UHGV virus genome: UHGV-0131723
Length of the DNA stretch: 41,571 bases
Direction: 5' to 3' (one strand)
Origin: a virus
This document shows positions 31,625-33,205 of this stretch, piece by piece. Below the pieces are notes generated by a model. It had not been told where the DNA came from and made no database searches. It saw only the letters and a program-made list of their open reading frames with translations. A program made the position numbers and the translations under genes. Numbering within the stretch: the first letter of the stretch is position 1; each line of letters opens with the position of its first letter.

Positions 31625-33040
31625 ATGAGCGAATTATTTAAACATGCGCACCTTCATGCAGGTCGAACTGAAAATGGTGCTGCAAACCATACTTCATCAA
31701 TGTCTGCTCTTGTAGACTTTTACAAAGCTGCTGGTTCAAGCCGTAGCAATGTAGAAATCTTACCAGACCTGTTCTACAAAGCTTTGCATGAGGATGTTGA
31801 TGTTGCAGTTCGTATTTTACTGCATATGCGAGATGTACGAGAAGGTATGGGTGAGCGTAAAGCCTTCAGAACTGTTTTGCTTCAAGCAATTGAAGACAAA
31901 GTTTTAGAGTCTACGCAGGTTCTTCGCATTATGGATAAGATTGCAGAACTTGGTCGTTTTGATGACTTCAAAATCTTCGTAGGTACTCGTTTCGAGACAG
32001 ATGCCTTCAAACATTTAGAAGCAGCATTACTAGACCCTGCAACAGCAGGTTTGGCGGCTAAGTGGTTACCACGAGTCAAACCACGTCATAAGCAGTTTGT
32101 AAAACGTTTCTGCAAGTTTGCCAACTTGAGTGAGAAAGAGTACCGCACACTGTTGTCTGCACTATCTGATACAGTTGAGCAAAAAATCTCTGCTAATGAG
32201 TTTGGTAAGATTGACTACAGTAAGATTCCTTCACTTGCTGCTGCACGTTACCAAAAACTGTTTAACCGTAAAGATGGAGAGCGTTACAAAGCTTACATCG
32301 AGTCCTTATCAAAAGGTGAGACTAAGATTAACGCTGGTGCTGTTTACCCATACGATGTGATTAAATCTGTCAAGTATGGTAATGCAGATGTTGCTAATGA
32401 GCAGTGGAAAGCACTACCAAACTGGATGGCAGAAGGTGAAAACATCTTGTGTATGTCTGATGTATCAAGTTCAATGTCTTGGGTGAATTTTGGCTCCATT
32501 ACTGCTCTGGATATTGGTGTATCACTTGCCTTGTATGTAGCAGAACGCAATACAGGTTGCTTTAAGAATGAGTTGATGGTTTATTCAACAAACCCTCACT
32601 TCATCGAACTGAGTGGTGATTTACGAAACCGTCATCGTCAGGTGATGCGACACGTTGAATATGGCTCAACTAACTTACAAGCAGCTTTTGACCGCATTCT
32701 TGAAACAGGTAAAAGAAACAACTTGACTCAGAAAGATATGCCAAGTAAGCTTATCATCTTCTCCGATATGGAGTTCAATCAGGTTGATGGAGCTAACGGA
32801 CGTACAAACTTTGAAGCAATTCAGAGTAAGTACAAAAAAGCTGGATATGAGATGCCACAACTGGTATTCTGGTACTTAGCAAACCGTAATGGTACTTGCG
32901 AAGTATCTGTTAAGGATAACGGTGTAGCAATGGTATCAGGGTTCTCTCCAGCCACTTTAAAAGCTCTGCTTGGTGGTGAGAAGTTTGACCCAATCAGTGT
33001 AATGCTCAAAGCAGTAATGATTGACCGTTATATCTGGTAA
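31625..33040 (+). CDS. vWA-domain protein with MIDAS motif and N-terminal helical domain (TROVE/Ro60-like or DUF2828-like architecture)
   Basis: MIDAS residues DVSSS, GSTNLQAAF, FSDMEF in C-terminal half; ~270-aa N-terminal region; GAGAAGAGAG RBS. Confidence 0.6.
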   Translation: MSELFKHAHLHAGRTENGAANHTSSMSALVDFYKAAGSSRSNVEILPDLFYKALHEDVDVAVRILLHMRDVREGMGERKAFRTVLLQAIEDKVLESTQVLRIMDKIAELGRFDDFKIFVGTRFETDAFKHLEAALLDPATAGLAAKWLPRVKPRHKQFVKRFCKFANLSEKEYRTLLSALSDTVEQKISANEFGKIDYSKIPSLAAARYQKLFNRKDGERYKAYIESLSKGETKINAGAVYPYDVIKSVKYGNADVANEQWKALPNWMAEGENILCMSDVSSSMSWVNFGSITALDIGVSLALYVAERNTGCFKNELMVYSTNPHFIELSGDLRNRHRQVMRHVEYGSTNLQAAFDRILETGKRNNLTQKDMPSKLIIFSDMEFNQVDGANGRTNFEAIQSKYKKAGYEMPQLVFWYLANRNGTCEVSVKDNGVAMVSGFSPATLKALLGGEKFDPISVMLKAVMIDRYIW

Positions 33041-33058
33041 AAAGTTTTAAAAAGGGTA

Positions 33059-33087
33059 TTGACAATGTGTTTAATACCCTTTAATAT
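33059..33087 (+). promoter_or_regulatory. Sigma70-like promoter upstream of tRNA cluster
   Basis: TTGACA-N17-TAATAT. Confidence 0.6.
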
Positions 33088-33149
33088 GTTCTACATAGAA
33101 ACGAAATGAGAGCTTTTCTAAGATACTGAAAAATATTTTAAAAAAGTTC

Positions 33150-33179
33150 TTGACAATCACTAAAAAATAATGTTAAAGT
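33150..33179 (+). promoter_or_regulatory. Sigma70-like promoter upstream of tRNA cluster
   Basis: TTGACA-N18-TAAAGT. Confidence 0.5.
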
Positions 33180-33205
33180 GGTTACATAGAGTTTGAAAAG
33201 TTTAT

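What the first reader, a model, noticed from the sequence alone, without database searches (positions are those of the whole stretch)
31625..33200. vWA/MIDAS protein with Ro60/TROVE-like architecture immediately upstream of the tRNA cluster
The 471-aa product has a C-terminal von Willebrand A domain with an apparent complete MIDAS (D-V-S-S-S, then GSTNLQAAF, then FSDMEF) and a ~270-aa N-terminal helical region. That domain order is the architecture of Ro60/Rsr RNA-binding proteins and of DUF2828-type phage proteins. It lies directly before the promoters driving a tRNA cluster that contains several non-canonical tRNA-like elements and unassigned transcribed spacers. In bacteria, Rsr partners with tRNA-mimicking Y RNAs, so a phage Ro-like protein beside tRNA-like RNAs suggests a possible RNA-protein module for tRNA quality control or protection.
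Basis: inference. Interest (0 to 1): 0.7.

Follow-up and report, generated by a model that had tools for sequence, protein, structure and literature searches.

The report
Phage Ro60-like protein with Y-like RNAs
This Felix-O1-type phage gene encodes a ring-shaped Ro60-like RNA-binding protein already reported to block a bacterial defence, and next to it, hidden between tRNA genes, sit four small structured RNAs that look like its so-far-unidentified partner RNAs.

Summary
ORF 31625-33040 (+), 471 aa, has a helical N-terminal half and a C-terminal vWA domain with a complete, invariant MIDAS. It matches Pfam DUF2828 + DUF7788 and phrog_850 'RNA-binding protein'.

The window is a Felixounavirus. 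The protein is 97% identical to Bas63 gp130. A 2024 preprint called gp130 Ro60-like, showed it counters the Ppl defence, and guessed that some neighbouring tRNA genes are Y RNAs.

The new result is the partner RNAs. They are four units at 33372-33449, 33538-33603, 33925-34007 and 34015-34152. Each is closed by a bulged helix followed by UUNCAGCAA. The fourth encloses a permuted tRNA-like domain, as in bacterial YrlA.

The same helix + C[A/C/U]GCAA 'handle' flanks DUF2828 genes on the same strand in 52 of 76 viral loci and 33 of 80 genome-derived contigs. Plus versus minus strand hits were 125 vs 1 and 53 vs 1. Rfam has no matching family. Binding is inferred, not shown.

The parts
31556..31585 (+). 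promoter-like site (TTGACA-18-TAAAGT) upstream of the ORF
   Evidence: Consensus scan. Consensus match only; the total number of sites in the region is not above shuffles.
31625..33040 (+). gene for a 471-aa Ro60-like protein (DUF2828 + DUF7788/vWA); orthologue of Bas63 gp130
31625..32419 (+). N-terminal all-helical (HEAT/TROVE-like by structure) half, residues 1-~265
32432..32989 (+). vWA domain (residues ~270-455) with MIDAS D279-x-S281-x-S283 (nt 32459-32473), T349 (32669-32671), D381 (32765-32767)
   Evidence: DUF7788 residues 274-455. Invariant MIDAS residues. hhalign to the Ro60 alignment: probability 86%, E 4.7e-6 over residues 224-445. vWA_Ro60 matches 14/60 members.
33059..33179 (+). 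two promoter-like sites (33059-33087, 33150-33179) in front of the tRNA / Y-like RNA operon
   Evidence: consensus matches only.
33372..33449 (+). Y-like RNA unit U1 (short form). Outer stem 33372-33375/33446-33449, AGA bulge, inner helix 33379-33385/33438-33444, CAGCAA at 33389-33394. Fills the tRNA-Glu/tRNA-Met spacer.
   Evidence: Sequence; MFE fold; CM R1 41.6 bits; handle score 38.3; conserved in Bas63, SUSP1, Mordin, ESh22.
33538..33603 (+). Y-like RNA unit U2 (short form). Outer stem 33538-33541/33600-33603, inner helix 33545-33551/33592-33598 (one G.U), CAGCAA at 33555-33560. Fills the tRNA-Met/tRNA-Asn spacer.
   Evidence: (39.2 bits). The outer stem covaries TTGC/GCAA <-> TTAC/GTAA among Ounavirinae.
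33925..34007 (+). Y-like RNA unit U3 (short form). Outer stem 33925-33928/34004-34007, inner helix 33932-33938/33996-34002, CAGCAA at 33942-33947.
   Evidence: (34.3 bits).
34015..34152 (+). Y-like RNA unit U4 (long, YrlA-like form). Outer stem 34015-34018/34149-34152, inner helix 34022-34029/34140-34147, CAGCAA at 34032-34037.
   Evidence: MFE gives a four-way junction. Handle score 40.8. An alignment of 21 long forms gives handle + T arm + acceptor-like hairpin, with compensatory changes in 17/19 pairs.
34053..34125 (+). permuted tRNA-like domain inside U4: V hairpin 34053-34069, T arm 34074-34090 (GAAGGTTCGATTCCTTC), acceptor-like hairpin 34091-34108, D arm 34109-34125
   Evidence: Weak partial Rfam tRNA hit at 34041-34091, 22 bits. 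Same V-T-AS-D order as YrlA (PMC4201824).
34157..34291 (+). possible fifth, divergent unit: conserved stem-closed RNA (13-bp terminal stem) with an internal hairpin CAGAC-CUUAAGCAA-GUCUG
   Evidence: Sequence. Alignment with compensatory changes in Bas63/SUSP1/Mordin/ESh22. Not detected by the handle scan; assignment tentative.
33206..38360 (+). tRNA cluster (25 ARAGORN tRNAs) in which the units are embedded; context only

Best explanation
The gene encodes a compact, divergent member of the Ro60/Rsr structural class. A helical horseshoe is closed by a vWA/MIDAS domain into an RNA-binding ring. In the closely related phage Bas63, the same protein (gp130) neutralises the host Ppl defence.

I propose that the protein works as an RNP with phage-encoded Y-RNA-like partners. 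Four of these, possibly five, are transcribed with the tRNA operon directly downstream. Because they fill the tRNA spacers, the tRNA-processing enzymes should release them.

Each RNA has a common 'handle': a 7-8-bp helix starting A-U, G-C, R-Y, with an unpaired G on the 3' side, immediately followed on the 5' strand by UUNCAGCAA. In Ounavirinae there is also an AGA/G internal loop and a 4-bp outer stem. I take the handle to be the protein-binding site. It plays the part of the bulged stem of Y RNAs.

The handle displays a variable cargo loop. In U4 the cargo is a permuted tRNA mimic, as in bacterial YrlA. By analogy with Rsr-YrlA-PNPase and phage phiLo Ro60-Yrl-PNPase, the cargo would gate the ring and tether or decoy host RNA enzymes (exoribonucleases, tRNA-directed nucleases or tRNA-modifying enzymes) during infection.

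Shown here: the fold, the orthology, and the existence, structure, strand and gene linkage of the RNAs. Shown by others: anti-Ppl activity of the orthologue. Inferred: protein-RNA binding, processing by tRNA enzymes, and the downstream target.
For: Protein.
- AF2 pLDDT 90.1, pTM 0.89.
- Foldseek's top 12 PDB hits are all Ro60/TROVE over 510-556 columns, E 3e-8 to 1e-6; the next hits are vWA-only at E>=2e-3.
- hhalign to a Ro60 alignment: probability 86%, E 4.7e-6 for residues 224-445.
- MIDAS residues are invariant.

Orthology and function.
- 458/471 identical to bas63_0130, in the same position before tRNA-Pro.
- The gp130 deletion is sensitive to Ppl; complementation or transfer into T7 rescues (PMC11482910).

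RNA in the window.
- Four units share the same predicted closing structure.
- GGTCTGG occurs 8 times against 2.5 expected, four of them here on the + strand.
- The units keep the same order in four other Ounavirinae, with compensatory changes in the outer stem.

RNA across the family.
- CM R1: all 61 hits at E<=0.01 are on the gene's strand in 907 kb.
- PSSM + pairing scan: 125 hits on the + strand vs 1 on the - strand. 52/76 loci have at least one unit. Median distance to the gene is 62.5 nt, and none lies inside the gene.
- 106/125 hits lie within 1 kb of the gene against 18% of the sequence, P 4e-58.
- Most 'negative' loci carry a variant handle (CUGCAA or UUGCAGCAA) right after the stop codon.
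- Non-circular pairing test: 163/796 motif sites have a perfect 7-bp partner, against 47-69 with swapped helices. The - strand shows no excess.
- Independent set of 80 genome/MAG contigs at 33-42% protein identity: 53 vs 1 hits, 47/53 within 1 kb, P 2e-19.
- No other protein family is shared across the loci.
- The long forms have a T arm, an acceptor-like hairpin and a D arm in YrlA order; 17/19 pairs show compensatory changes.
Against: - No binding, expression or processing data exist for these RNAs. Binding is inferred from genetic linkage and analogy.
- gp130 alone, from a plasmid or inserted into T7, restored plaquing on the ppl strain (PMC11482910). The phage RNAs are therefore not needed for that activity, unless host RNAs substitute.
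- The handle motif is not the GNCGAA/GGUCCGA motif of known Y RNAs, and no Rfam Y RNA model matches.
- Pfam TROVE is not matched by any of 60 family members. Homology of the N-terminal half rests on predicted structure only.
- Single-sequence folding z-scores of U1-U4 are weak (-1.1 to -1.8).
- Part of the covariation count is circular, because the sequences were picked for having the helix.
- 24/76 viral and 47/80 genome loci fall below the scan threshold. Some of these have variant handles and some have truncated flanks.
Confidence: 0.62

Rival explanations
1. The protein is an anti-defence factor that acts as a protein only, for example by binding or blocking Ppl or its nucleic-acid substrate through the ring or the MIDAS face. 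The neighbouring structured RNAs are independent elements of the tRNA operon (processing signals, spacers or decoys) that do not bind it.
Against: The handle element tracks the gene, not tRNAs. It is present in loci with no tRNA within 6 kb (for example L008, L011, L013, L019, L024). It is always on the gene's strand, at a median of 62 nt from the gene, in two independent collections. The full-length fold match is to an RNA-binding ring, not to vWA proteins alone.
Confidence: 0.2
2. The handle elements are cis-regulatory operators in the gene's own mRNA (5' or 3' UTR). The protein uses them to autoregulate its translation or stability. They are not trans-acting Y-like RNAs.
For: In many loci the element abuts the start or stop codon. 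In L012 it ends 15 nt before ATG, next to the Shine-Dalgarno sequence. In L008, L011, L013, L019 and L024 it starts 27-35 nt after the stop.
Against: In this window the units lie 330-1100 nt downstream, behind two promoter-like sites and between tRNAs. There are 1-7 units per locus. Many carry elaborate cargo (tRNA mimics, whole tRNAs, 150-250-nt domains) that an operator would not need. This rival still requires protein-RNA binding.
Confidence: 0.1
3. The Ro60 resemblance is convergent or a modelling artefact. The protein is a generic vWA protein with a helical extension (for example a chaperone cofactor), and the 'RNA-binding protein' label is annotation by weak similarity.
For: There is no Pfam TROVE hit. 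PDB sequence searches with the protein and with the family profile find no Ro60. hhalign covers only the C-terminal half. The match to Deinococcus Rsr is poor (TM 0.37).
Confidence: 0.05

Closest known systems
Bas63 (Escherichia phage JohannRWettstein) gp130, PhageMaP preprint, PMC11482910
   Same: Orthologue: 97% identical, 471 aa, same position before tRNA-Pro. It has already been called structurally Ro60-like, linked by hypothesis to Y RNAs, and shown to counter the Ppl defence.
   Different: That work guessed that some annotated tRNA genes are the Y RNAs and identified no RNA. The units found here lie in unannotated spacers. In Bas63 these are partly covered by small antisense ORFs, bas63_0137/0138.
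Thermus phage phiLo Ro60 with Yrl1/Yrl2 (PDB 9KOP, 9L5Y; PMC12135203)
   Different: phiLo Ro60 is a recognisable TROVE protein and its Yrl RNAs carry the CGAA motif. Here Pfam TROVE is not matched and the RNA motif is C[A/C/U]GCAA. Binding and PNPase interaction were shown for phiLo and not for this protein.
Bacterial Rsr with YrlA/YrlB (Salmonella, Mycobacterium, mycobacteriophages; PMC4201824)
   Same: A ring protein with several Y-like RNAs within a few kb on the same strand. One RNA has a tRNA-like domain in the order V, T arm, acceptor-like hairpin, D arm, entered through a stem formed by the RNA's ends. Shorter siblings lack the tRNA-like domain.
   Different: The 5' motif is GNCGAAN0-1G in YrlA and UUNCAGCAA here. 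The host operon context (RtcB/RtcA) is absent. The RNAs are embedded in a tRNA operon. Some relatives carry whole tRNAs or 150-250-nt domains as cargo.
Eukaryotic Ro60-Y RNA RNP (PDB 1YVP, 2I91, 9NEN)
   Different: 12-13% sequence identity. The N-terminal domain is about 90 residues shorter. The conserved RNA motif is different (GGUCCGA bulged helix).
Pfam DUF2828 (PF11443) / DUF7788 (PF25043); phrog_850
   Same: Clear member of all three.
   Different: These families carry no experimentally defined function. 'RNA-binding protein' is an annotation label.

Membership tests
Ro60/Rsr (TROVE + vWA ring proteins) | N-terminal alpha-helical repeat horseshoe followed by a C-terminal vWA domain, aligning full-length to solved Ro60 structures | tested here: met
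Ro60/Rsr (TROVE + vWA ring proteins) | Sequence signature of the TROVE domain (Pfam PF05731) | tested here: not met
   No hit for the query at E<=1 and for 0/60 family members at E<=10. hhalign to a Ro60 alignment covers only residues 224-445.
Ro60/Rsr (TROVE + vWA ring proteins) | vWA domain with MIDAS (DxSxS ... T ... D) related to the Ro60 vWA | tested here: met
   D279, S281, S283, T349, D381 invariant. hhalign probability 86%, E 4.7e-6. vWA_Ro60 PF25045 matched by 14/60 members, best E 1.7e-4.
Ro60/Rsr (TROVE + vWA ring proteins) | Partner noncoding RNA(s) encoded within a few kb on the same strand | tested here: met
   Four units lie 330-1100 nt downstream. Family-wide linkage: 125 vs 1 strand bias, median 62.5 nt from the gene. 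This is genetic linkage only.
Ro60/Rsr (TROVE + vWA ring proteins) | Physical binding of Y RNA on the outer surface and of single-stranded RNA ends in the central hole | not testable with these tools
   Needs EMSA, RIP or a structure.
Y RNA / YrlA-type RNA | Stem formed by the 5' and 3' ends, with a bulge or internal loop, enclosing a large variable loop | tested here: met
   MFE folds of U1-U4. Helix covariation. Outer-stem covariation in Ounavirinae.
Y RNA / YrlA-type RNA | tRNA-like domain with V arm, T arm, acceptor-like stem-loop and D arm in that 5'-3' order (YrlA) | tested here: met
   U4 34053-34125. 21 long forms: T arm and acceptor-like hairpin predicted with compensatory changes, D arm conserved in sequence.
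Y RNA / YrlA-type RNA | Conserved Ro-binding motif GNCGAAN0-1G (bacteria) or GGUCCGA (metazoa) near the 5' end | tested here: not met
   The conserved motif at that position is UUNC[A/C/U]GCAA.
Y RNA / YrlA-type RNA | Match to a curated RNA family model | tested here: not met
   Rfam 15 at E<=10 on 33360-34300 gives only tRNA-type hits. There are no hits on handle elements in 11 distant loci, except that embedded tRNAs are called.
DUF2828/DUF7788 (Pfam), phrog_850 | Scores above the curated thresholds of the family models | tested here: met
   101.7 bits (cut-off 29) and 148.9 bits (cut-off 27.1). phrog_850 611 bits full-length.
Anti-defence protein countering Ppl (Bas63 gp130) | Orthology to the tested protein | tested here: met
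   458/471 identical, syntenic.
Anti-defence protein countering Ppl (Bas63 gp130) | Loss of the gene sensitises the phage to Ppl; the gene alone rescues | not testable with these tools
   Reported for Bas63/T7 in PMC11482910; not tested for this phage.

The most novel reading that the evidence does not exclude
DUF2828 proteins and the 'handle' RNAs together form a large, previously unrecognised branch of viral Ro60-Y RNA particles, with thousands of phage lineages and 8,932 protein cluster representatives. One conserved protein-binding handle (helix + UUNCAGCAA) displays interchangeable cargo: permuted tRNA mimics, whole tRNAs, and larger structured domains. This would make them programmable RNA decoys or tethers that phages use against host RNA-directed or nucleic-acid-directed defences such as Ppl. 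The Felixounavirus/E. coli pair (Bas63) would be a genetically tractable model.
Probability: 0.5. Interest if true: 0.85.

Novelty: new variant of a known kind. Interest (0 to 1): 0.7.

Why it matters
Ro60-Y RNA particles are conserved from bacteria to humans and are a major autoantigen, yet their working mechanism is still debated. Bacterial models are few.

If the handle RNAs bind this protein, several things follow:
- An E. coli phage with an existing knockout phenotype (Ppl sensitivity) becomes a simple system for asking what the RNA partners add to a Ro ring.
- The unexplained spacers in the tRNA clusters of Felix-O1-type therapeutic phages get an explanation.
- A family of nearly 9,000 'domain of unknown function' protein clusters gets a concrete, testable partner.
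- A new RNA family is added: a handle with modular cargo, including tRNA mimics. It is absent from Rfam.

It also corrects annotation. The small antisense ORFs called over these spacers are probably spurious.

Tried and rejected
- PDB sequence searches with the protein and with the family profile found no Ro60. Only fold comparison did.
- hhalign against a single human Ro60 sequence was weak (probability 40%). A six-sequence Ro60 alignment raised it to 86%, but still only for the C-terminal half.
- Rfam scans of 30500-39000 and of 33360-34300 found no Y RNA-type family.
- The exact Felixounavirus motif AGAAGRCC...GGYCTGG is absent from distant loci. I had to generalise it to helix + C[A/C/U]GCAA.
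34781-34859 is a tRNA-like gene annotated tRNA-Arg elsewhere.
- 'Orphan T-arm' hits 4.7-5.8 kb downstream in several loci turned out to be phage tmRNA genes.
- Many apparent permuted-tRNA hits were just adjacent tRNAs.
- A search for a conserved protein partner (RtcB, ligase, PNPase or similar) found none. DUF5681 upstream is lineage-specific.
- The loose regex scan had a high background (308 vs 176 vs ~110 in shuffles), so I replaced it with a CM and a PSSM + pairing scan.
- The covariation count on A2 is partly circular, so I added the swapped-helix test.
- The PhageMaP supplements that could show fitness of insertions in the RNA region are not held.
- Literature searches for DUF2828, YrlA + phage and Ro60-like found no description of these RNAs.
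Full report
**Observation.** The ORF is real. It runs 31625..33040 on the + strand and encodes 471 aa. In an alignment with 59 homologues of 41-89% identity, the MIDAS residues D279, S281, S283, T349 and D381 are invariant. Pfam assigns DUF2828 (E 5e-29) and DUF7788 (E 2e-43). PHROGs assigns phrog_850 'RNA-binding protein' over the full length (E 2e-183). ARAGORN finds 25 tRNAs from 33206 to 38360 on the same strand. Two promoter-like sites with a perfect TTGACA (33059-33087, 33150-33179) lie between the stop codon and tRNA-Pro. 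The total number of promoter-like matches in the region is not above shuffles.

**Origin of the window.** The window is a Felixounavirus, 99.3% identical to Escherichia phage fjerdesal. The gene is present in 251 phage records, including Felix O1 itself. It is annotated variously as hypothetical, vWFA protein, DUF2828 family protein or RNA-binding protein. The family is large and uniform in length. The word-index search found more than 2,204 relatives. The exhaustive profile search found 8,932 50%-identity cluster representatives at E<=1e-3 and 4,091 at E<=1e-30.

**Is it Ro60-like?** Sequence searches against PDB chains found nothing, with either the protein or the family profile. An AlphaFold2 model built from the 60-sequence alignment is confident (mean pLDDT 90.1, pTM 0.89). 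It shows helices up to about residue 263 and then an alpha/beta domain.
- Foldseek against the PDB: the first 12 hits are all Ro60/TROVE structures aligned over 510-556 columns (E 2.7e-8 to 1.2e-6, TM 0.53-0.67, but 0.37 for Deinococcus Rsr). They include Thermus phage phiLo Ro60, Xenopus and human Ro60, and Deinococcus Rsr. Everything after them is a vWA-only match at E>=2e-3.

At the sequence level the link is partial. No family member matches Pfam TROVE even at E<=10. In contrast, 14 of 60 match the Ro60-specific vWA model and 33 of 60 match VWA_2. I built a Ro60 alignment from human Ro60 and five phage 'Ro-like' proteins. Profile-profile comparison with it gives probability 86% and E 4.7e-6, but only for residues 224-445 against Ro60 304-527. 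The fold-level claim is therefore well supported. Homology of the C-terminal half is supported by sequence. The N-terminal half is Ro60-like by predicted structure only.

**What is already known.** Bas63 (phage JohannRWettstein, MZ501086) is a Felixounavirus. Its bas63_0130 is a 471-aa CDS directly before tRNA-Pro and is 458/471 identical to the window protein. The PhageMaP preprint (PMC11482910) makes four relevant statements:
[quoted passage not shown] - Deleting g130 makes Bas63 sensitive to the single-gene Ppl defence (ATPase + PHP domain), with rescue by complementation.
- gp130 alone, from a plasmid or inserted into T7, restores T7 plaquing on the ppl strain.

Phage Ro60 homologues with neighbouring Y-like RNAs are also known for actinophages (PMC4201824) and for Thermus phage phiLo, where binding to Yrl1/Yrl2 and to host PNPase was shown (PMC12135203). 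Bona fide TROVE Ro-like genes occur in 358 phage records, mostly actinophages and none enterobacterial. The protein studied here belongs to a separate, more divergent branch.

**The partner RNAs in the window.** Reading the tRNA cluster showed a repeated pattern in spacers that carry no annotated gene: CAGAAGACC...UUACAGCAA...GGUCUGG. GGTCTGG occurs 8 times in the window against 2.5 expected. Four of these are on the + strand between 33440 and 34149, each preceded by AGAAGRCC. The four units are U1 33372-33449, U2 33538-33603, U3 33925-34007 and U4 34015-34152.

RNAfold gives all four the same closing structure:
- a 4-bp outer stem;
- an AGA bulge opposite a single G;
- a 7-8-bp inner helix, followed immediately on the 5' strand by (A/U)UU(A/C)CAGCAA.

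The outer stems differ between units (UGAC/GUCA, UUGC/GCAA, GAGC/GCUC, UUAC/GUAA). The single-sequence z-scores are weak (-1.1 to -1.8).

U4's loop folds into a four-way junction: a V hairpin (34053-34069), a T arm GAAGGTTCGATTCCTTC (34074-34090), a closed acceptor-like hairpin (34091-34108) and a D arm (34109-34125). This is the permuted order described for bacterial YrlA (PMC4201824).

U1 and U2 occupy the whole spacers tRNA-Glu/tRNA-Met and tRNA-Met/tRNA-Asn, to within 3-8 nt of the tRNA ends. Ordinary tRNA processing would therefore release them as discrete RNAs. That is an inference from coordinates.

The same four units occur in the same order in Bas63, SUSP1, Mordin and ESh22. U2's outer stem shows a compensatory change, TTGC/GCAA <-> TTAC/GTAA. 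In Bas63, small antisense ORFs (bas63_0137/0138) are annotated over the U3/U4 region.

**Generality.** I fetched 75 distant viral loci (38-47% protein identity) with 6-kb flanks. The exact Felixounavirus motif is absent there. A generalised 'handle' is present. It consists of a 7-bp helix beginning [A/U]-G-[G/A], about three nucleotides, then C[A/C]GCAA, with the complementary strand followed by an unpaired G 30-250 nt downstream.

MAFFT aligned 36 short forms cleanly. In the helix, one pair never varies and six show double changes. These sequences had been chosen for having a helix, so I ran further tests that do not rely on that choice.
- Covariance model. All 61 hits at E<=0.01, and 80 of 82 at E<=1, are on the gene's strand in 907 kb searched on both strands. 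Some of these hits were not in the training set.
- PSSM + pairing scan. 125 hits on the + strand against 1 on the - strand. 52 of 76 loci have at least one unit and 1-7 units occur per locus. The median distance to the gene is 62.5 nt, and none lies inside the gene. 106 of 125 hits lie within 1 kb of the gene, although that zone is 18% of the sequence (P 4e-58).
- Sequence-only test. Of 796 + strand C[ACU]GCAA sites, 163 have a perfect 7-bp partner downstream, against 47-69 when the helices are swapped between sites. The - strand shows no excess (56 against 40-59).
- Independent collection. In 80 genome/MAG contigs encoding relatives of 33-42% identity, many from Clostridia, the same scan gives 53 against 1 hits, 33 loci, and 47 of 53 hits within 1 kb (P 2e-19).

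Most viral loci below threshold carry a variant handle right after the stop codon. The variants are AAGRUGY-WWW-CUGCAA...CAUCUUG and AGGAAUAA-UUGCAGCAA...CGAUUCCG. No protein family other than DUF2828 itself is shared across the loci. The RNA handle is therefore the only general companion of the gene. tRNAs lie within 6 kb in 29 of 75 loci, always on the same strand. The handle is also present where there are no tRNAs.

**Modular cargo.** The handle encloses different inserts:
- short A/U-rich loops of 40-75 nt;
- permuted tRNA-like domains, in at least 14 units from L010, L020, L022, L025, L049, L058, L075 and L080, plus U4;
- complete tRNAs that Rfam calls as tRNA (L049 5753-5824, L058 5778-5843, L080 8538-8608);
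- several conserved 150-250-nt domains.

For 21 long forms, RNAalifold on a plain MAFFT alignment recovers the handle helix, the T arm and the acceptor-like hairpin. 17 of 19 pairs show compensatory double changes. This mirrors the modular logic of Y RNAs, a protein-binding stem plus a variable effector loop, but with a different conserved motif. Rfam 15 has no family matching the handle, either in the window or in 11 distant loci. Full-text searches found no description of these RNAs.

**Mechanism.** The best-supported reading is that the protein is a Ro60-class ring and U1-U4 are its cognate Y-like RNAs. The handle would be the binding site. The cargo, in U4 a tRNA mimic, would gate the ring or recruit or decoy host RNA enzymes, as in Rsr-YrlA-PNPase and phiLo Ro60-Yrl-PNPase. 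The biological output known so far is protection from Ppl.
- Shown here: fold, orthology, RNA structure, strand and linkage.
- Taken from the literature: the anti-Ppl phenotype.
- Inferred: binding, processing and target.

The main caveat is that gp130 alone suffices against Ppl in T7. The RNAs may therefore serve regulation or other defences, or a host RNA may substitute for them. Three rivals remain open at lower probability: protein-only action with unrelated RNAs, cis-acting autoregulatory operators, and convergent fold.

**Verdict.** The added value of this analysis is the identification of the likely partner RNAs and of a widespread, apparently undescribed handle-RNA family linked to DUF2828 proteins. 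I rate it a new variant of a known kind, interest 0.7.

Noticed in passing
window 34157-34291: A conserved ~135-nt RNA closed by a 13-bp stem (CTTTGTAGATAAG/CTTATCTACAAAG) lies directly after U4. The stem covaries in SUSP1, Mordin and ESh22. An internal hairpin CAGAC-CUUAAGCAA-GUCUG resembles a miniature handle. It may be a fifth, divergent partner RNA.
   Followed up: partly
window 34781-34859: A tRNA-like gene scores 31.7 bits with Rfam tRNA, just above the gathering score. ARAGORN does not call it.
   Followed up: partly
window 34533-34780, 35008-35082 and 35192-35447: These spacers remain unassigned. A promoter-like site (TTGACA-17-TATAGT, 11/12 matches) lies at 34548-34576. There are only weak sub-threshold hits: tmRNA-like, tRNA-Sec-like (23 bits) and a MIR473-like hairpin. 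None has the handle motif.
   Followed up: no
window 35856-35950: This 95-nt spacer between tRNA-Thr and tRNA-Val folds well (-26 kcal/mol, z -1.8). It contains CUGAAGACCGUAACAA, which resembles the 5' half of the Felixounavirus handle, but there is no CAGCAA and no GGUCUGG partner.
   Followed up: no
L086 (Bas63) 4749-4901 and 4913-5023, minus strand: The small hypothetical ORFs bas63_0137 and bas63_0138 are annotated antisense over the equivalents of U3/U4. They are probably spurious calls on structured-RNA DNA.
   Followed up: partly
L029 11822-12178; similar 3' halves in L030, L038, L042, L044, L066, L074: A phage-encoded tmRNA gene (Rfam 66 bits) lies 4.4-5.8 kb downstream of the DUF2828 gene in one clade of metagenomic phages.
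   Followed up: partly
L049 5734-5833, L058 5759-5852, L080 8520-8615: Complete tRNAs (Rfam 41-55 bits; anticodon loops read UGU, AUU and UCU) are embedded between the two strands of a handle. They look like tRNAs presented on the putative protein-binding stem.
   Followed up: partly
L022 11696-11922: A group I intron (Rfam 71.5 bits) lies in a distant DUF2828-encoding phage contig.
   Followed up: no
window 31172-31543: A DUF5681 protein gene lies just upstream on the same strand. It is conserved in Ounavirinae but was not among the protein families shared across the distant loci, so it is unlikely to be a general partner.
   Followed up: partly
L089 (phage SUSP1) 7204-7608: An HNH endonuclease gene is inserted within the tRNA cluster of the related Suspvirus.
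   Followed up: no
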